Below, in pieces: positions 9,990-59,965 of a DNA stretch of 64,000 nt. Both the position numbers and the translations under genes were made by a program. The stretch comes from Eledone cirrhosa. Its lineage: Eukaryota. The notes beneath the pieces are model-generated. The model was not told the DNA's origin. It did not search any database and saw only the letters and a list, made by a program, of their open reading frames with translations. Position 1 is the first letter of the stretch, and every line of letters starts with the position of its first letter. The stretch spans positions 3,472,001-3,536,000 of the forward strand of contig OZ024752.1 in assembly GCA_964016885.1 (NCBI GenBank). The letters run 5' to 3'.

Positions 9990-10074
9990 AGTGCAATACA
10001 ATACAATAGGAAGGAACATAATATTAGTACCATTGATGATGTTGCAGATGTGCAACAAAAGAACTTTGATAGTC
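9990..10074 (+). mobile_element. Fragment of the PLE-A2 pLTR with a mutated HHR
   Basis: 'cattgatgatgttgcagatgtgcaacaaaagaactttg' aligns with the reverse complement of 51867-51918 and with 50218-50269. Confidence 0.7.
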
Positions 10075-11105
10075 GAAAAATGTCGCTCCTACCACCTCAT
10101 GCAGTAGGAGGCTGAGATAAAAGCATTCATGTTGGTTAGGATGAATTGTGTAGACTCTCCCAAGAGTAGGGGAGATTTTAATGTCTGGATGTCCCTCGAC
10201 GGGTTCTCCTTTCACCCTTCTTAACCAAATTCTGTTGTCTGTGTTCCAAGTGTAGTATGATGTCACCTGAGAGTAGAAGAGGGTCTTGGCGACGGGATCG
10301 TTTCGGGATAACTTAAAAAATGCCGTAAGTGTGGTGTACTTGGGCTCCTCTGCTATCTCAGCAGAGGTTACCGTTTTCAAAGTGCGCCGCCAACTGTTTG
10401 ATTGGGGGGGGGGGTAGTTATGACCTATTGCAAAGTGGAAGAATCGCCAGAATGCTTCATTGCTGCTGATGTATTGGCCGACCTGGTATCGAGTGATTTC
10501 GTCTCGGCTGGTCTCCATTCTAAGACCGAAGGACGCAGCATCGGACCCCTTATTGATGTACTTGCAGACGTACTTTAGCGATTTGATGGTGTGGCACTAT
10601 TCAACGTTAATGTGAGCGTTAAATATTTTAAGCAGAAGTGGGCAGTAGGGTACAATCCACCGGTTGTCTACGTGGTGATGTGGGGTTTTCGCAACAATTC
10701 CTCCGTCCGCTAGCTCCCTGCGGCGGTATAATGGGTAACCGTCGCCACCTGTCTGAGTTTCTAGGAGGAATGGCCATGGATACCTCCTGGTGCACCTGCT
10801 TTCTTTAATGCATGGCGACTTCATGTTGAAACCGTTTCCGCGTGGCCCGTGAACTATGTGAGCAATGACGATGTTGTGGAGTTCTCTATCCAATTTCGGG
10901 ACGGGTATTTCTGCTAAAATAATGCTGTCAATGCTGGTTGCGTTGATTTTCGTTATTAGCCAATGAGTAGGTGGGCGTGTGGCGGGCCTACCTTTGCCAC
11001 TCAACGGTGTATACGTAGCACCTAACAGGTCCAAAGGCGTTACCTGATTGTATGAGTTCAATAAGTTTTGTCAATTTCAAGTGGAAGACTCGTGCCGTAA
11101 GGATA
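10075..11105 (-). pseudogene. Helitron RepHel fragment (HUH Rep region), frameshifted
   Basis: YTVEWQ...HAH (motif 2), HGP..SPC, GYPLYRRR, DNRWIVPY.P.LL..FNAHINVE, KYVCKYINKG (motif 3), DEI..YQ..YISS.EA.WR across ORFs 10988-11221, 10597-11061 and 10024-10518. Confidence 0.92.
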
Positions 11106-13829: not shown

Positions 13830-13903
13830 ATAGGAAAAAGTAAGACTCCGACGGCAGAGCTCAAGCCGTTTCGACGGCTATTTCTGGACTCATTTCCTTC
13901 GTT
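13830..13903 (-). mobile_element. Family X short element: inverted arm plus tail end
   Basis: reverse complement gagtccagaaatagccgtcgaaacggcttgagctctgccgtcgg, then + strand 'catttccttcgtt'; flanked by TA repeats. Confidence 0.8.
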
Positions 13904-23011: not shown

Positions 23012-23106
23012 TCTATTTACTTTATTCTTAACTCTGAAGCGGAGAATCATTCGGTTTCCTAGTTAGAATTTTAGTCTACGACTTCAGTTATACCATTTAC
23101 GGTGTT

Positions 23107-25269
23107 TTGTCTTTGCGTGCAATCGTTCTCCACGCTCCACATATGACGTATTATCTTTTTTTTCGTTCATTGTCTGGCAGAATGTCGGTTTACAGCCTGC
23201 CAAACTACATCCAGACAATGCAACCCCACATCACTAACACAAGAGAGGTAACACCACAGGAGCATGAGGATAGAGAAAAAGCCCTCAATGCTCATATGGT
23301 GATGTGGACGAATATAATGCAGCCCAACAAAAGGACTGCCAACAACTTCCAGGCCTGGAACAATGACGTGCCGGCGTTGTATGGGCTTCGAAAAGACCAT
23401 AAAACGGGCAGTGACCCTGTCACGGGACCACCAACACGGCCGGTCTGTGGAGCTAACATTGCTAGTAACTACAGACTGTCCTACTTCCTCTCCCTGATCA
23501 TACACCCTATCATTGAAATGTCCCCAGATGTATGTGCCAGCACGGATGACCTCCTCAGCAGAATCGGCGTGGGTAACCGATCTGGGGACCTAACAAACTG
23601 CATAATAGGCAGTATGGATGTTGTGTCCCTGTATCCATCTATTGACGTGGATTTTGCTGTGGAGAAATGCGTAGAAATGATCAGTGAGAGCAAGGTTGAG
23701 TTCCGTGGGATTGATACCGGTGAGCTGGGCCTTCTACTTAAGCTTACCTATAGTAATAGTTACCTAGACACATATGACCTTAGCAACCTGTGCCCTACAA
23801 GACCAGCAAGAGGCAGACCACCTACCATTACCTCAATGGCCAAGAAAACCCACACAGATAGATGGAACGGGTGGACCAGAGCCATACGGACACCCGAAAA
23901 CCACGATGAACTGAAGCGAATGATTGAACATGCGGTAAGGGCCAGCATAAAATTAACCCTTAAGGAACATATGTTCAAATTTAATGGAAAAACATATGCC
24001 CAAGCGGAAGGAGCAGCCATTGGTGTTAGCATTGCAGGCGACATAGCTAACTTATTCATGGTATGGTGGGACAGTAGACTTAAACTTAAACTTAAAGAAC
24101 AATTAGAAGACAGCTTAACCCTGATAATGTACTCCCGCTACGTAGATGATATAAACATCGTAGTTAAGACACCCCCACGAGAGAACAGTCAGGAACTAGA
24201 GAAAAACACAATGGAAAGCATCCAGCAAATAGCAAACTCCATCCACCAGAGCATTAGAGTTACTATAGACTACCCAAGTAGACACCCCAACCATCGATTA
24301 CCTGTACTAGACACAGAGCTCTGGTTAGATACCATTAACAACCAAAAACAAATCCTCCATTCCCATTATGCCAAACCCATGACTTCCAAACATCTGATCC
24401 ACCGAAACTCGGCCATTTCGGACCATACCAAAATCAACATACTGATTGCGGATTTGGTACGGGTGATGAGAAATGTGTCCCGCATGTGCAACCCCGAAGA
24501 ACTAGAGAGACACATACAACACTTCATCCACCGTATGCAGTTCTCTGGCTACAATCAGAGAGATAGAATCAGAGTGTATAGAGGAGCCAGAACCAAATGG
24601 GAAAAAATGGTAAATAATGACATAAATGGGACCTGCCCCTTGTATAGGAGCAAATTTTGGAATAGAATAGAAAGAACAAGGAACAAGGCTAATAGAATAA
24701 ACTCATGGTATGATAGCAATAAATACCAGAGTGTAATGTTCATCGATACAACCCCTAGAGGCGAACTAGCCTACAAATTTAGAAGGGCCCTAAATAAACA
24801 TAAACTCAATATTAAGATAGTAGAAAGACCAGGTACCTCCGTAAAAACACTTATTAGCAAGACGTACCCTTTTCAAAGAACCTCATGTATAGATAAGAAA
24901 TGTATAACCTGTAAAATAAGCCCCCATATTAACTGTAAAACTAGAAATGTAGTGTATAGCATAAGATGTACTGAAGGACAATGTAGAAACAAAAATATAG
25001 TGTACATAGGTGAGACAGCTCGTAGTATAGGGGAACGGATAAATGAACACTGGCGAGACCTTCAAGATAATAAAGAATCATCTGTACTCTACCAACATGC
25101 TAAGATAGAACACAAGGGTAAATTAGAGAGCATAGAAATAAAAATAGAATCTACACACAGAAAAGATGCAATATTTAGACAAATTACAGAGGCAATAAAC
25201 ATAAAAGAATTACAACCAAAATTAAATAGAAAATATGAGTGGAACAGCAACATCACAACTTACAATTAA
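23107..25269 (+). CDS. Penelope-like retroelement (PLE-A) RT + GIY-YIG endonuclease; probably 5'-truncated, homology from about 23195
   Basis: LYGLRKDHK, TRPV, SMDVVSLYPSI, Q..G.AIG, RYVDD, LPVLD, Cys linker CIDKKCITC, VVYSIRC...YIGETARS..ER..EH, terminal LNRK.E. Confidence 0.93.
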   Translation: MSLRAIVLHAPHMTYYLFFRSLSGRMSVYSLPNYIQTMQPHITNTREVTPQEHEDREKALNAHMVMWTNIMQPNKRTANNFQAWNNDVPALYGLRKDHKTGSDPVTGPPTRPVCGANIASNYRLSYFLSLIIHPIIEMSPDVCASTDDLLSRIGVGNRSGDLTNCIIGSMDVVSLYPSIDVDFAVEKCVEMISESKVEFRGIDTGELGLLLKLTYSNSYLDTYDLSNLCPTRPARGRPPTITSMAKKTHTDRWNGWTRAIRTPENHDELKRMIEHAVRASIKLTLKEHMFKFNGKTYAQAEGAAIGVSIAGDIANLFMVWWDSRLKLKLKEQLEDSLTLIMYSRYVDDINIVVKTPPRENSQELEKNTMESIQQIANSIHQSIRVTIDYPSRHPNHRLPVLDTELWLDTINNQKQILHSHYAKPMTSKHLIHRNSAISDHTKINILIADLVRVMRNVSRMCNPEELERHIQHFIHRMQFSGYNQRDRIRVYRGARTKWEKMVNNDINGTCPLYRSKFWNRIERTRNKANRINSWYDSNKYQSVMFIDTTPRGELAYKFRRALNKHKLNIKIVERPGTSVKTLISKTYPFQRTSCIDKKCITCKISPHINCKTRNVVYSIRCTEGQCRNKNIVYIGETARSIGERINEHWRDLQDNKESSVLYQHAKIEHKGKLESIEIKIESTHRKDAIFRQITEAINIKELQPKLNRKYEWNSNITTYN

Positions 25270-25675
25270 GGACAAAATGAAAACACACACACACATAGAA
25301 CAAACAACCAACCAATAACATGTAAATAAATAAATAGACAAATAGATAAATGAACATAAACACACACAGACACCCGGATGTGGCGCATGCGCAAACTGAG
25401 CACACAACACACACAAAGAAACAAAATGGCGTAGGTCAGAGAAAGGAGAGGCACAGAAACAAAGAAAGGAATCCCCAGTCACTGAAGATGTCACAGAGTG
25501 TGTGACGAAAGGACTATGACTATATATAAACAACTATCTGGTTGTGGAACCAACCAACCAACCAGAAATGTATAGATTTATAAATTTGTAAATTTATAAA
25601 TATATAATAAATTGAAGTGAAAGCAACTGGTGCGTGTGTTTCTTATTGGCAACATGACCCTCCCAAAGTATAACA

Positions 25676-25680
<5 letters not shown>
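25270..25680 (+). mobile_element. PLE-A 3' UTR/pseudo-LTR ending at 'aagtataacaatat' against (TA)n
   Basis: follows the stop codon; inverted copy at 26076-26440. Confidence 0.85.
25477..25521 (+). ncRNA. Minimal type-I HHR (inverted copy at 26233-26278, - strand)
   Basis: agtca-CTGAAGA-tgtcaca(gagtg)tgtgac-GAAA-ggac-TA-tgact. Confidence 0.8.
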
Positions 25681-25727
<47 letters not shown>

Positions 25728-25808
25728 TTGTATATATATATGTATATATATATACATATTTCTATATATATATATATATGTATATATATATACATATTTA
25801 TACATACA

Positions 25809-25854
<46 letters not shown>

Positions 25855-25952
25855 TATATATACATATATATATATACATATATGTATATATATATATGTA
25901 TATATATATATAAATATGTATATATATATGTATATATATAAATATGTATAAA

Positions 25953-26052
<100 letters not shown>

Positions 26053-26075
26053 GTATATATATATGTATATATATA

Positions 26076-26530
26076 TATTGTTATACATTGGGAGGGTCAT
26101 GTTGCCAATAAGAAACACACGCACCAGTTGCTTTCACTTCAATTTATTATATATTTATAAATTTACAAATTTACAAACTTATAAATGTCTGGTTGGTTGG
26201 TTGGTTCCACAACCAGATAGTTGTTTATATATAGTCATAGTCCCTTTCGTCACACACTCTGTGACCTCTTCAGTGACTGGGGATTCCTTTCTTTGTTTCT
26301 GTGCCTTTCCTTTCTTCTATCCTACGCCATTTTGTTTCTGTGTGTGTGTTGTGTGCTCAGTTTGCGCATGCGCCACATCCGGGTGTCTGTGTGTGTTTGT
26401 GTTCATTTATCTATTTGTTTATTTATTTATTTATTGTTGGTTGGCAGCATGACCCCTCCCAAAGTATAACAATATCGGTTTCAACACACATTTTTCAGAT
26501 AAAGAATCTTGCTAAACAAATTCAGAAACG
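26076..26530. mobile_element. Second PLE-A pLTR insertion: inverted arm 26076-26440, then + strand junction and tail 26443-26530
   Basis: reverse complement of about 25310-25680, then 'catgacccctcccaaagtataacaatatcggtttcaacacac...'. Confidence 0.88.
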
Positions 26531-36773: not shown

Positions 36774-36836
36774 GAGTCCAGAATTAGCCGTCGAAACGGC
36801 TTGAGCCCAGACGTCGGGGTCTTACTGGTTCCTATA
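36774..36836 (+). mobile_element. Family X copy ending at the junction (ttcctat) against (TA)n
   Basis: gagtccagaattagccgtcgaaacggcttgagc... Confidence 0.8.
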
Positions 36837-47900: not shown

Positions 47901-48044
47901 CACACACACACACATATATATATATACATAGTGTATTTTGCAATACACTGTATGCTTAAATAAAAGCATTTTGAAGACCTTACGCTACTGTTTTAAAGTA
48001 GTGACTATGTCACTTACTTCTTTTTTCAGCAAACAAAGGGAGAT

Positions 48045-48090
48045 AAGCTGACAGATCTCTGTTTCGTACTGTTGGTACTCTTCAGAGCTT
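48045..48090 (-). ncRNA. Canonical type-I HHR inside a 20 bp inverted repeat (48023-48042 / 48095-48114)
   Basis: aagct-CTGAAGA-gtac(caaca)gtac-GAAAC-ag(agat)ct-GTC-agctt. Confidence 0.9.
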
Positions 48091-48363
48091 CCCACTCCCT
48101 TTGTTTGCTGAAAATTATGAATGTAGGATTCTTATAGAATTCCAGTAATAATCAGTTATAAAGAAAGATGGTTACATGATTGTAATGTTCCATATATTGG
48201 TATTTCACTATGGTGTCCTGGGCTAATTCCTTCGTCAACAGAATATTTGACCCAACATAGTCATCTATTCCGACTTTTGCTTATAGCTAATTCCGATGAA
48301 CTGCTCCAATTTTACCTAAGTTAATTATCTTCAACTGAACCAGATAAATAATAATTTCCACGT

Positions 48364-48528
48364 TGGGCACAAGGCCAGCAATTACCCCAGTGTATTACTG
48401 GTACTTTATTTTATCGACCCCGTAAGGATGAAAAGCAAAGTTAACCTCGGCGGGATTTGAACTCAGATCATAAAGGGCTGCAACTCTTTGTTGCAAAGCA
48501 TGGCGTCCGACCCTCTGCCAATCCACCG
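48364..48528 (-). mobile_element. SINE family 1 copy
   Basis: reverse complement of the 31781-type consensus. Confidence 0.85.
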
Positions 48529-48919
48529 TCTATAATCATTTGATCCAGAAACATTATATGGAGAAGCGAAACATTTGTAAACGGTCATTGTTAGTAGTAT
48601 TATTATTATTCTTTACATTACTTACATTAAACTAAAACAATGTTGAGAATATTTTAATAATGTCTTCCTTGTGAAATTTGTGGTCTTGTTTTGCTTAACT
48701 AATGAATATTTCCAGCTCTGTGCACCTAACCTCTGCATGAACCCAGCCACCTAGCTGCTTCCACTGCATATTGCACATTGAGCACATGCCTTTACGCTTT
48801 GGCTTCTAACTAATTCATCAATCTCTCTTCTCCTATCCTATCTCCATCTCTGTCTTTAAGATTGGTTACTCTTGAACCAGTGTGTATATATATATATATA
48901 TATATATACACAACGGCGA

Positions 48920-50470
48920 TGAATTAGTTTTGCGCTTTGCGAGGTTTTTGATATGAAATCGTGTGTCCAACAGACCAGTGTCTGTCCTTAGGGCATCAAC
49001 ATACGTTAACCTTGGTCTTTCTCTTCTTCCAGTGTGTCCATGTAGGGGCTCCCACAGGAGCACTGAGTGCAATGTCAACTGTGGATGTCGGTGAGCATAT
49101 GTATATATTGTTATACTTAGGGAGGGTCATATTTGTGTAATAATATTGCCAGAATTAATAACAGAACACACTAACTGTTTGGTTGGTTTTCGCTTCTGTG
49201 TCTTTTATATCGGTTAATTTAATTTATTCGGTCCACAATGTTACTATTGATTTGATACGGAGGAGCCACGGAGAATTATAAGACTCTCATAGAACTGGAC
49301 ATAAAAGGAATTTGCCCATTATACAGGAGCAAATCATGGCATATCTTAGATAGGACTAGGACATAAGATAGGGAAAGCCACGTCATGGTACGACAACAAG
49401 AGTTACCAGAGTGTCATGTTTGTGGACGCTACCCCTGGAGGGAAATTAGCTAACCAGTGTAGAAAAGCCCTGATAAAGACCCACTTAAAGATTAAGGTGG
49501 TAGAAAAGCCAGGAACCACCATAAAATCCCTGATCAGCAAAACCTACCCTTTTAAGAAAACCCACTGTACTAATAGGAAATGTATTATATGTAAAGTAAA
49601 TTCCCGTATAAACTGTAACACTAGAACCGTAGTTTATAGCATAAGATGTACAGAGGGTACTTGCAGAAACATGACAACAACATACATAGGCGAGACAGAT
49701 CGTAGCATAGGTGAAAGGATAGACCAACACTGGGGGGAACTAAAAGGACGAAAAAACGGTTCAGTACTATACGAACAAGCCAGACAACAACACGACGGCA
49801 ACATAGACAACATATTAAAAATTAAAATAATATCTAAACATATAAATCACCCAGCAGATAGGCAAATAAGAGAGGCCAGCGAAATAGAACTTAAAAGGCC
49901 AAGGCTAAACAGAAAAAATGAATGGAATAACAACAACACCCAAACAAAAAATACTGACCTAAGAGAAGTATAAATAAAAAAGATAAATAAATAAATACAT
50001 ACAGAAGCACAATAACATCACACACATATAAACACACACTAGTAAACTAAGATTGAATACACTATCCAATACACTGTCACTCAAACACAATACACACACG
50101 AAAACGCATGCGCAGAGAAGAGGGTAAAAATAAATAAGTAAATAAATAAATAAATAAATAAATAAATAGACTAAATAAAGATGGCGTAGACATACAATAC
50201 AACAGGAGGAAACATAATAGCACCACTGACGATGTTCCAGATGTTCAACGAAAGAAATTTGTTAGACTATATATATATGTTTGTGTCTATATTGTATCTG
50301 TATTGTTGACCGTTGGTCAGTCAATGGTAACATTGAGGACCAAATAAATTCAATTAACCGATATAAAAGACACAGAAGCGAAAACCAACCAAACAGTTAG
50401 TGTGTTCTGTTAGTAATTCTGGCATTATTATTACACAAATATGACTCTCCCCAAGTATAACAATATATAT
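48920..50470 (+). mobile_element. PLE-A2 5'-truncated insertion with inverted 5' arm (48920-49250)
   Basis: 48969-49250 is the reverse complement of 50321-50605; pLTR with HHR-like motif at 50218-50269. Confidence 0.88.
49260..49973 (+). pseudogene. PLE C-terminal region with GIY-YIG endonuclease (frameshift near 49375)
   Basis: GICPLYRSK; MFVDATP; VVEKPGT; VVYSIRC...YIGETDRSIGERI; clearly homologous to the PLE-A C-terminus. Confidence 0.9.
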
Positions 50471-50474
50471 ATAT

Positions 50475-50687
50475 GCTCACCGACATCCACAGTTGACATT
50501 GCACTCAGTGCTCCTGTGGGAGCCCCTACATGGACACACTGGAAGAGGAGGAAGACCAAGGTTAATGTATGTTGATGCCCTAAGGAGAGACACTGCTCTG
50601 TTGGAGACGCAGAACATGGCAACGATAATGAGGGACAGAGAACGCTGGAGAGGACTCGTCTATGGATCTCGGGAATTTTACCTGCCC

Positions 50688-50690
<3 letters not shown>
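50475..50690 (+). pseudogene. LINE (RTE-like) ORF C-terminal fragment
   Basis: LLWEPLHG..GRGGRPR..YVD.LRRD....M.DRERWR, typical of the post-RT C-terminus. Confidence 0.7.
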
Positions 50691-50725
<35 letters not shown>

Positions 50726-50729
<4 letters not shown>

Positions 50730-50925
50730 AACGAGTAGGACCCCGACGGCTGAGCCCAAGCCGTTTCGACGGCTAATTCTGGACTCGTCCAGAATTAGCC
50801 GTCGAAACGGCTTCAGCTCAGCCGTCGGATTACTACTCGTTCCTATTACCCATTCTACTACCCTAAGTATTGAATACTTTGGTGCGTTATGGTCCATCTG
50901 GTTCCTTACCACATTTCCTTCGTTA
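50726..50925. mobile_element. Family X complete fold-back (50726-50787 inverted, 50788-50925 arm plus tail)
   Basis: palindrome centred on ctggactcgtccag. Confidence 0.88.
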
Positions 50926-50933
50926 TATATATA

Positions 50934-51022
<89 letters not shown>

Positions 51023-51280
51023 CAGCAGCAACCAAAGGTAGAGAGAGAAAGGTAAATAATGATCAATAATTTGTGGTATCATTACAGACTAATAATATCT
51101 CATTATCTTGACACATGCTGTTCGGAGGATAGCAAATCACTAGAATTAACAATAAAGAACTGAAATGGAGTGGAGCTAATCAAACAGACATCATGAGTCT
51201 TGGGGATACCTATTGTATAGTGAAATACATACGCATATATACATATATCTATAGTTATATAAGTAAACACTAACACATAC

Positions 51281-51374
<94 letters not shown>

Positions 51375-51407
51375 TGTGTGTGTGTGTATAGAGATACATA
51401 TGTACAC

Positions 51408-51630: not shown

Positions 51631-52026
51631 GTTTTGCGAGGTTTTTGATATGAAATCGTGTGTCGAAACAAATATTGTTATACTTGGGGAGGGTCATATT
51701 GTTGTAATTATATTGCCAGAATTAATAACAGAACACACTCACCGTTTGCTTGGTTTTCGCTTCTGTATCTTTTATATCAGTTAATTTATTCGGTCTTCAT
51801 TGTTTACCATTGACTGCCCAACGGTCAAAAATACAGATATAATATAGACACAAACATATATATATATAGTCTAACAAAGTTCTTTCGTTGCACATCTGCA
51901 ACATCGTCAGTGGTGCTATTATGTTTCCTTCTGTTGTATTGTATGTCTACGCCATCTTTATTTAATCTGTTTATTATCTGTTAGTAATTCTGGCAATATT
52001 ATTACAATATGACCCTCTCCAAGTAT

Positions 52027-52032
<6 letters not shown>
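51631..52032. mobile_element. PLE-A2 pLTR fold-back: tail and pLTR on - (HHR-like 51867-51918), short + arm 51977-52032
   Basis: CTGACGA-tgttgca(gatg)tgcaac-GAAA; reverse complement of 50172-50465. Confidence 0.85.
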
Positions 52033-57782: not shown

Positions 57783-57919
57783 GGTCCAGAAATAGCCGTC
57801 GAAACGGCTTGAGCTCTGCCGTCGGGGTCATACTTTTTCCTATTTCCCACTCTACTATCCTAAGTATTGAGTACTCTGGTGCGTTATGGTCCATTTGTTT
57901 CCTTACCACAATTCCTTTG

Positions 57920-57922
<3 letters not shown>
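57783..57922 (+). mobile_element. Family X copy with tail
   Basis: matches 50788-50925. Confidence 0.85.
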
Positions 57923-57965
<43 letters not shown>

Positions 57966-58477
57966 GAGATTCTACAGGACTAGAACTGTTTCATTCATTA
58001 GAAATCATCAGGAATCTGGGTATCAAAAAATAAATATGGTATTTATAGGTCTCTACAGGTGGTAGGAGAGGGTGGGGAGTGGGATGGGTGCAGGTCATTG
58101 GTTGATAGAGAAGGGAATTCATTAAAGGCTAATTCTACAAAGCTATAGTTAATTTATATTTATTTATGTTTTTAGAGTAACAAAGGCAGACAGAAATCTA
58201 TAAACAAGTTCCGGATGGCATACCATTCCTTGTCAATAAGTTTCTCTTAAGCTAGCAGATGTCTATAAAATCAGTGGGGGGTCATTCATGCTCGATAGAA
58301 TTAAAGAAAATTTAAAGTCATTAAGTTCTGCTAAGTGACAAAGGTCTAGGGAATTCTGCAGACAGATGAGACCATAAGGGAAACTTCCTCAACAAACCAT
58401 CAGTCAGACTTATCAACCCCACTCGCTCCGACATCGGCTCTATCAGTAAGAAGATCCTGGATAGAGTTCTACCATTA

Positions 58478-59965
58478 TTGCGGGCGGCCTCACCACTTCC
58501 ACTCTGGAGTAGAACATCTGAGGCAATATCATGGTTCCAAGAATTACCCGATAAACACCACACTCGCTTCCTGCAACTCGACATAGAAAACTACTATGCC
58601 TCTATCTCGGAGCCCCTCCTGAAGGACGCAATTAACTTTGCCAGGAATTTTACCACCATTACCGATGCCGAGCAAGTTATTATCCTCCACGCTCGTAAGA
58701 CCTTTCTATACCACGATGGATCTTACTGGATCAACAAGAAATCTCAGACCCCATTTGACGTTAGCATGGGGGCGAGTGACTCGGCTGAAATTAGCGACCT
58801 TGTGGGCCTGTACATCCTACATAACCTGAAGAACCTCTTTACCGGCCTTACTGGAGGTTTATACCGAGACGACGGCCTCTTCGCCCTGCATAAGGTTAGC
58901 CCCAGAACCACCGATGGGTTTCGGAAAAACTTAAGCTCTTTCTTCTCTAATCTAGGATTTAGTATTACTATAGATTCTAATCTGACTAGGGCCAACTTCT
59001 TAGATGTCACTCTCGACCTAGATACTTCCCTCTATTACCCGTACCACAAACCTAACGAGTCCCTTAAATATATTAATGTTAATTCAAACCACCCCCAAAA
59101 CATTACTGATAACCTAGTAAAAAGCGTCTCTATTAGAATATCTGGCCTCTCCGCCAACAAAGATATTTTTAATGCATCTGCCTCCTACTACAACGACGCC
59201 CTAGCCCGTAGCGGATTTAAAGATAAGATAACTTACCTAGAAACCACCGCAAAATTGCAGAGGAGGAATAGACATAGGCAGATTAGCTGGTACAACCCTC
59301 CCTTCAATAGAGAGGTATCTACTCCGATAGCTAGGATCTTCTTCACTTTACTGAAATTACACTTCCCCATACAACATAGGTACTACACCATCTTTAATAA
59401 GAACACTATAAGACTGTCTTACTCCACCACACCTAACCTAGCTAGGAATATAGCCAACCACAACTCTAAACTAAATAAGCCAACCACCTCCGAAACCAAT
59501 CCCCGGACTGGGGCTCTATGTAATTGCCTAAATAAGGAAACATGCCCACTAGAAAACAAATGCCTCACAAACGACATCGTATACAAATGCGATGTCATCT
59601 CGGGCACCGAGGATTGCAAAAAAACTTACATCGGCATGACATCCAACACCTTTAAGACCCGCTGGTATGCCCATACCCACTCCTTCAGAAGACCGGATAA
59701 ATCAAACCAAACAACACTCGCCTCCTACGTTTGGGACCTCAAAAGGAACTCCACCCCCTTCACGCTTAATTGGAAAATACTCCAGAAAGCGCGCTCTTAC
59801 GACGGAGGACACAAGGGCTGCGACCTTTGTATTTCAGAGAGTTACGAAATTTTATTCGCCAAGGGCCCGCTACTGAACAAACTCTCTGAACACTGCCCGA
59901 ACTGCATGCACAAGAACTTTGCAACATTCAAACACTTTAAGCCAGTGTTAAAGCCCGATGGCTAA
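58478..59965 (+). CDS. PLE-B RT + GIY-YIG endonuclease, 5'-truncated (homology starts near 58368: KPSVRLINP)
   Basis: QLDIENYYASI, FDVSMGASDSAEISDLVG, GLYRDDGL, NFLDVTL, WYNPPF, CNC..CPL..CL, IVYKC...YIGMTS..FK.R..H, CDLC, CMH. Confidence 0.93.
   Translation: MRAASPLPLWSRTSEAISWFQELPDKHHTRFLQLDIENYYASISEPLLKDAINFARNFTTITDAEQVIILHARKTFLYHDGSYWINKKSQTPFDVSMGASDSAEISDLVGLYILHNLKNLFTGLTGGLYRDDGLFALHKVSPRTTDGFRKNLSSFFSNLGFSITIDSNLTRANFLDVTLDLDTSLYYPYHKPNESLKYINVNSNHPQNITDNLVKSVSIRISGLSANKDIFNASASYYNDALARSGFKDKITYLETTAKLQRRNRHRQISWYNPPFNREVSTPIARIFFTLLKLHFPIQHRYYTIFNKNTIRLSYSTTPNLARNIANHNSKLNKPTTSETNPRTGALCNCLNKETCPLENKCLTNDIVYKCDVISGTEDCKKTYIGMTSNTFKTRWYAHTHSFRRPDKSNQTTLASYVWDLKRNSTPFTLNWKILQKARSYDGGHKGCDLCISESYEILFAKGPLLNKLSEHCPNCMHKNFATFKHFKPVLKPDG

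What the first reader, a model, noticed from the sequence alone, without database searches (positions are those of the whole stretch)
48920..50690. Inverted arm of a PLE insertion has copied about 130 bp of flanking target DNA
Seen: the right end runs pLTR, junction, short TA, then a LINE fragment (50475-50690). The left inverted arm contains the same pLTR end, short TA and the first ~130 bp of that LINE fragment (48969-49097), then switches at a 'tgtt..gacac'-like microhomology to the normal PLE tail (48920-48968; compare 51631-51672, where the tail follows the junction directly). Inference: the second arm was templated partly from the newly joined cDNA-target DNA after starting on the tail, which gives a snapshot of second-strand synthesis. 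Alternative: a chimeric source RNA.
Basis: partly seen in the sequence, partly recalled or inferred. Interest (0 to 1): 0.75.

Follow-up and report, generated by a model that had tools for sequence, protein, structure and literature searches.

The report
Penelope insertion copied its own flank
One arm of a two-armed Penelope-like retrotransposon insertion carries an inverted 141-base copy of the DNA beside the other arm, found at no other screened copy, and it likely records DNA synthesis running past the insertion point during integration, a rare accident already known for other retrotransposons.

Summary
Observation confirmed. The left arm (48912-49250, minus strand) reads pLTR end, junction, 10 nt TA, 131 nt of the LINE fragment that flanks the right arm, then a family tail missing its first 9 nt. 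The arms are 95% identical. It is a single event: a 3-nt insertion marks only these two LINE copies genome-wide, and none of 191 other screened tails carries a flank copy.

A strand starting on the tail cannot copy the cDNA-plus-target strand. More likely (0.5), the sense strand was made on the long cDNA already joined to the target, ran 141 nt into the flank, then joined a tail-only cDNA at a 2-nt microhomology. The family supports both steps: tail-only cDNAs joined to the other arm are common, and near-hairpin junctions are in threefold excess. Rivals: a tail-primed template jump (0.2), later break repair (0.2), chimeric RNA (0.08).

L1 templated insertions and R2 snap-back are published analogues; I found none for Penelope-like elements. 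An earlier scan note reports a related local copy in a Penelope hairpin in another genome.

The parts
48880..48911 (.). Left TA-rich target tract
   Evidence: Sequence; both arm ends of family insertions sit in TA tracts
48912..48967 (-). Partial long tail: first 9 nt missing, 7-nt internal duplication
   Evidence: in long copies the tail continues into the element's own coding sequence
48966..48967 (-). 2-nt microhomology shared by LINE copy and tail
48966..49096 (-). Inverted copy of the first 131 nt of the right-hand LINE fragment
   Evidence: Shares one substitution and a 3-nt insertion with the right copy, absent in 19 of 19 other copies aligned; insertion pattern matches only these two places genome-wide
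49097..49106 (-). Copied 10-nt TA spacer
   Evidence: Same length as 50465-50474, one substitution
49107..49250 (-). Left arm: last 144 nt of the pLTR up to the junction
49251..49254 (.). 4-nt filler at the head-to-head junction, repeating adjacent bases
49255..50464 (+). Right, tail-less arm: 5'-truncated ORF end (open 49350-49973, endonuclease region) plus pLTR
   Evidence: about 4.3% from the family majority in the ORF part
50465..50474 (+). 10-nt TA spacer after the junction
50473..50689 (+). 3'-terminal LINE fragment (RTE-like by recalled motifs), followed by a TA tract
   Evidence: Multicopy, 2878 candidates; longer copies give an open C-terminal frame; no Pfam hit

Best explanation
During integration, a new sense strand was likely synthesised on the long cDNA already attached to the right-hand target DNA, ran 141 nt past the junction into the flank, and was likely joined to a short tail-only cDNA on the left end at a 2-nt microhomology. 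Inferred steps: the element cut both strands in a TA tract beside a LINE fragment; the right end primed a 1.2-kb cDNA at the junction and the left end primed a 49-nt cDNA that stopped inside the tail. The long cDNA then folded back (or a second strand was started on it) 144 nt from the junction. With no pLTR sequence on the left cDNA to anneal to, synthesis overshot. Shown: the final structure, its uniqueness among screened loci, and both intermediate types in the family. The polymerase (element RT or host) is not determined.
For: (1) Private origin; none of 25 other LINE copies with the same TA-plus-5' start follows a pLTR junction. (2) Tail-only cDNAs are common: of 172 loci screened, 79 have a partial tail joined straight to the antisense arm. 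(3) Fold-back is a family trait: 11 of 43 arm pairs start within 25 nt of each other, against 3.4 by permutation (p 0.0004); 7 of 29 against 2.5 (p 0.006) in pairs not picked by pLTR similarity. L147 and L405 show a fold-back of about 30 nt joined to a partial tail. (4) The equal 10-nt TA spacer follows automatically from DNA copying. (5) Flank copies have diverged as much as the arms, 6/141 against 8/144, Fisher p 0.79; family arm pairs differ by 3.1-4.9%. (6) A PLE protein cuts and extends both strands in vitro (PMC11167929); cDNA snap-back is a described R2 junction class (PMC11371274).
Against: The focal junction is not a tight hairpin: the arms start about 1,066 nt apart and carry a 4-nt filler. 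The arms differ at 50326, a site polymorphic in the family, though it is also discordant in 2 of 10 near-hairpin pairs and 1 of 13 far pairs. L160 and L385 show that tail-primed cDNA can jump templates. No TA-only overshoot was seen among 12 tails preceded by a TA tract. Dating favours copying at insertion over a later time by only 1.5- to 3.5-fold. Near-equal arm lengths could also come from two RTs stopping together or from later conversion. It is one event, and the empty site was not seen.
Confidence: 0.5

Rival explanations
1. One reading: the left end was primed on the tail RNA, jumped to the upper strand of the right-hand target 141 nt from the break, copied back to the TA, then re-primed on element RNA at the junction and copied 144 nt of pLTR before end joining.
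For: Sense ORF pieces absent from the opposite arm lie next to partial tails at L160 (178 nt) and L385 (68 nt), so tail-primed jumps occur. The arms differ at polymorphic site 50326, and by 5.6% overall, like far pairs (4.9%). L1 templated insertions are ascribed to the growing cDNA pairing with nearby DNA (bioRxiv 2024.08.27.596794).
Against: Needs two jumps, the first onto a strand that 5' resection would remove rather than expose (established repair biology, from memory), guided by 2 nt. The identical TA length would be a coincidence.
Confidence: 0.2
2. The insertion was first normal. A later break at the left junction-tail border was repaired by invasion of the right arm through 144 nt of homology, copying into the flank, then re-annealing to the remaining tail.
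For: Gives the same structure and equal TA length without homogenising the arms. The LINE copies share two older private changes. With 1 shared of 9 pLTR changes, the upper bound allows copying as late as 65% of the insertion's age. [quoted passage not shown]
Against: The break must fall in a 9-nt window, and the join lies in the stretch where co-insertional tail-only cDNAs end. Flank divergence is not lower than arm divergence. One shared rare variant is within the family baseline of 0.45-0.89 per 138 nt.
Confidence: 0.2
3. The LINE fragment came in with the element, from a read-through pLTR-TA-LINE RNA or a switch between LINE and PLE RNA, so both LINE copies are cDNA and the source has been lost.
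For: L347 holds 385 nt of the same LINE between a PLE arm and a partial tail. The LINE copy is not demonstrably older than the PLE arm. An unfixed source could be missing from this assembly.
Against: No source or sister chimera: 40 of 1746 candidates scored; 40 of 2878. The family primes at the junction or tail, not in downstream flank. TA plus this same LINE start occurs alone at 25 other loci.
Confidence: 0.08
4. Assembly artefact.
For: No independent read or contig was seen to span the chimeric joins.
Against: The two copies differ at 14 of 285 positions spread along their length, which a duplicated assembly segment would not.
Confidence: 0.02

Closest known systems
Inverted pLTR insertion units with a tail in EN+ Penelope-like elements (PMC3846280; PMC8557442)
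   Same: Head-to-head 5'-truncated arms, tail on one arm, microsatellite target, pLTR and tail overlapping the ORF start; self-priming was proposed from junction palindromes.
   Different: The passages read describe no arm containing target flank. Arkhipova et al. placed self-priming on an antisense template; a copied flank would place it on target-joined DNA.
L1 templated insertions and target-site foldback inversions (bioRxiv 2024.08.27.596794; PMC10191854; PMC11702581)
   Same: Local genomic DNA under 250 bp copied into an insertion (22 cases; templates within 15 bp of the site); 52-220 bp inverted duplications of target DNA (4 cases).
   Different: [quoted passage not shown] Here the copy is of the primer-side flank, continuous with the element's 3' end, and sits between junction and tail.
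R2 snap-back 5' junctions (PMC11371274)
   Same: The cDNA 3' end primes further synthesis on the cDNA or nearby target DNA before joining.
   Different: Engineered R2 system with one primed end; no second, tail-primed cDNA.
Internal RT initiation in the anole Poseidon element (PMC11167929)
   Same: Both strands cut and extended; two start sites define the tail. This family has tail ends at about 44 and 58 nt.
   Different: That study leaves second-strand synthesis and arm joining unvalidated.

Membership tests
EN+ Penelope-like element | Single ORF with RT and C-terminal GIY-YIG endonuclease | tested here: met
   Near-intact frame of about 1,300 codons in L337. RVT_1 E 1.3e-5 in L310. RVT_1 and GIY-YIG at E about 5e-4 in the 70%-identical relative at 23038-25266. 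All below curated cut-offs; the focal 207-aa piece alone had no Pfam hit.
EN+ Penelope-like element | [quoted passage not shown] | tested here: met
   Seen by eye in the 49350-49973 translation; definition from PMC8557442
EN+ Penelope-like element | Partial tandem and inverted pLTRs with an optional tail | tested here: met
EN+ Penelope-like element | Hammerhead ribozyme motif in the pLTR | tested here: inconclusive
   No Rfam hammerhead match; a core-like motif near 50226-50253 by eye against a recalled consensus
Neptune/Nematis clades | CX2-5CxxC motif upstream of GIY-YIG | tested here: met
   Present in the translation; motif from PMC8557442
Neptune/Nematis clades | RT phylogenetic placement | not tested
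   No tree built
RTE-clade LINE (flank fragment) | APE endonuclease plus RT ORF placed in the RTE clade | tested here: inconclusive
   Only the C-terminal frame was recovered; no Pfam hit; the RTE label is recalled from motifs
Templated insertion formed during retrotransposition | Copied DNA derives from the local flank of the same insertion | tested here: met
Templated insertion formed during retrotransposition | Copy formed at integration, with the template present at the empty site | tested here: inconclusive
   Divergence fits but is weak; no empty allele seen

The most novel reading that the evidence does not exclude
The inverted arm of Penelope-like insertions is normally a DNA copy of the first cDNA after it is fixed to the target, closed by annealing to a separately primed tail cDNA. 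This locus is the overshoot product that exposes that pathway, and the family's hairpin excess and tail-only joins are its other fossils.
Probability: 0.35. Interest if true: 0.65.

Novelty: new variant of a known kind. Interest (0 to 1): 0.42.

Why it matters
How Penelope-like elements make their inverted arm and finish second-strand synthesis is still open (PMC11167929 says these steps are unvalidated). An arm that contains target DNA cannot come from element RNA alone, so if it formed at integration it places arm synthesis on target-joined DNA. This family, with 3,485 exact tail anchors, offers a large natural sample for testing that. As a genomic feature the locus is a decayed one-off with no sign of function.

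Tried and rejected
Subfamily chimera: rejected. L249 first looked like a second flank copy, but its 16 nt are the element's own leader. L274 has 87 nt of inverted flank outside both ends, a different geometry that may be a pre-existing palindrome; not counted. L174/L346 is a later insertion with a duplicated tail. The rare T shared by both arms at 50398: 56 matches genome-wide, 50 inspected, T in one arm at 14 two-armed loci and in both at 1; within baseline, so not used. Microhomology survey: 7 of 29 scorable joins had 2 nt or more, 4 had 0-1, 18 had unaligned bases; too crude to use. Public contigs of four runs laid on 48000-51400 were dominated by other family copies; one contig in each of two runs from one sample matched 51029-51271 exactly, and none listed spanned the chimeric joins or an empty site. 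Rfam gave only microsatellite-driven miRNA hits. The first not-junction pattern was mis-registered and mostly returned CpG variants. A paper on octopus repeats added nothing.

Full report
Observation. The window holds inverted arms at 48963-49250 and 50321-50608, 95% complementary. Read in element sense, the left arm is 144 nt of pLTR, the junction, 10 nt TA, 131 nt of LINE, then a tail lacking its first 9 nt, ending in a TA tract. The right arm is 1.2 kb of ORF end and pLTR, the same junction, 10 nt TA and a 216-nt LINE fragment. The LINE-to-tail switch has a 2-nt exact microhomology. The head-to-head junction has a 4-nt filler.

The family. Other copies show the same plan: one arm ends at the junction and runs into TA, the other adds a tail of about 44 or 58 nt before TA. 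In long copies the tail continues into the element's coding sequence. L337 holds a 4,482-nt unit with a near-intact frame, an asparagine-rich stretch, RT and endonuclease. Pfam hits are weak but consistent. The endonuclease region has the CCHH cysteines and the upstream CX2-5CxxC motif described for Neptune and Nematis; no tree was built. The tail anchor occurs 3,485 times exactly. The host was not identified and nothing here rests on it.

Is the chimera a subfamily? No second chimera was among 40 scored of 1,746 candidates or 40 of 2,878. The two focal LINE copies share a substitution and a 3-nt insertion absent from 19 of 19 aligned copies, and the insertion pattern matches only these two places (an exact pattern would miss a diverged source). 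TA followed by the same LINE start occurs at 25 other loci, none directly after a pLTR junction. So the right-hand LINE looks like an ordinary stand-alone fragment and the left one is its copy.

How often do arms carry flank? I searched for tails not preceded by the normal junction. I examined 80 of 100 matches (focal included), 92 of 117 and all 21 (focal included). The unexamined ones looked near-normal, looked like duplicates, or were not listed. The 172 loci of the first two sets fell into 32 near-normal, 79 partial tails joined straight to the antisense arm, 6 with sense sequence that is not the junction, 12 after a TA tract and 43 other, including the focal locus (some are segmental duplicates). 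None of the 191 non-focal loci showed an inverted copy of the opposite flank between junction and tail, within windows of 1.5 to 8 kb upstream. I estimate, without a control, that the patterns catch roughly half to two thirds of such cases, so the event is rare, not proven unique.

Polarity. The right cDNA extends the bottom strand from the right flank. A strand primed at the left end, starting on the tail, has the same sequence polarity over the copied stretch, so it cannot be templated by that cDNA-target strand. Only the left arm's sense strand can, and it would end on the tail.

Family evidence on mechanism. Arm start points lie within 25 nt of each other in 11 of 43 pairs, against 3.4 by permutation (p 0.0004), and in 7 of 29 pairs not chosen by pLTR similarity, against 2.5 (p 0.006) (one double-counted pair dropped; pairs had to fit in the fetched window with a gap of 40 nt or less). 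Near pairs differ by 3.1%, far pairs by 4.9%. L147 and L405 show a short fold-back joined to a partial tail. Against this, L160 and L385 show tail-primed jumps to ORF sequence, and the focal junction is not a tight hairpin.

Timing. The pLTR copies differ at 8 of 144 sites and the flank copies at 6 of 141 (p 0.79). Copying at insertion is favoured over a uniformly later time by only 1.5- to 3.5-fold. One rare variant shared by both arms is within baseline. Site 50326 differs between the arms but is also discordant in other pairs. The right arm is about 4.3% from the family majority and the LINE copy is similar, so their order cannot be read from divergence. Public contigs gave neither an empty allele nor a piece spanning the joins; that question stays open.

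Mechanism and odds. Best: sense-strand synthesis on the target-joined cDNA overshot by 141 nt and was joined to a tail-only cDNA (0.5). Rivals: tail-primed jump onto the flank and back to RNA (0.2), later one-sided repair (0.2), LINE carried in on RNA (0.08), assembly error (0.02).

Literature. PMC11167929 (abstract, main text and part of methods read): both strands cut and extended, internal start sites give the tail, later steps unvalidated. PMC3846280 (passages and Discussion): junction palindromes read as self-priming on an antisense template. PMC8557442 (passages): structure and clade motifs. PMC11371274 (passages): R2 snap-back. PMC10191854 (passages): 52-220 bp foldback duplications. 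bioRxiv 2024.08.27.596794 (passages): 22 templated insertions. PMC11702581 (passages and one section): three templated and three inverted cases. Polymerase theta papers were seen as a search listing only. Supplementary figures showing the geometry of those L1 cases were not seen and may include this one. Searches showed no report of a Penelope-like arm with a flank copy; the library lacks most subscription journals, including older PLE reviews.

Verdict. Real, rare, and a new variant of a known kind of integration accident. Its value is as a constraint on how the inverted arm is made, and one event cannot settle that. Interest 0.42.

Noticed in passing
L356-L382 (e.g. G000:C11:20607259): 25 other LINE copies begin at the same base after a TA tract, and most share diagnostic alleles the focal copy lacks, suggesting a roughly 213-nt non-autonomous subfamily.
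   Followed up: partly
L337:1445-5927; L310: The full-length ORF has a long asparagine-rich stretch upstream of the RT, recalling N-rich inserts in Adineta Penelopes, which lie at other positions.
   Followed up: no
L347 (G000:C1:194.67 Mb): A tailed 2-kb PLE arm runs into 385 nt of the same LINE lacking its 3' end, then TA and a partial tail; possible RT switch from PLE to LINE RNA.
   Followed up: partly
L160 and L385: Sense pieces of the ORF (178 and 68 nt) lie between a partial tail and the antisense arm; likely template jumps of tail-primed cDNA.
   Followed up: partly
L274 (G000:C12:28.21 Mb): 87 nt of flank appear inverted, 98% identical, on both outer sides of a short insertion; pre-existing palindrome or another kind of flank copy.
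   Followed up: partly
window 50728-50923 (also 13830-13891, 36774-36835, 57784-57920): A repeated element with a 119-nt near-perfect palindrome that sits in TA tracts.
   Followed up: no
window 23038-26530: A related PLE family (about 70% identical) with a 743-aa open frame, the same junction motif and a different tail.
   Followed up: partly
window 51631-52032: A second short two-armed insertion of the focal family, with the tail directly after the junction.
   Followed up: yes
window 58370-59965: A 531-aa open frame with an RT-like core by eye and a weak GIY-YIG hit; probably a third PLE.
   Followed up: no
window 10024-11070, minus strand: Broken frames resembling a Helitron replication protein (recalled motifs).
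   Followed up: no
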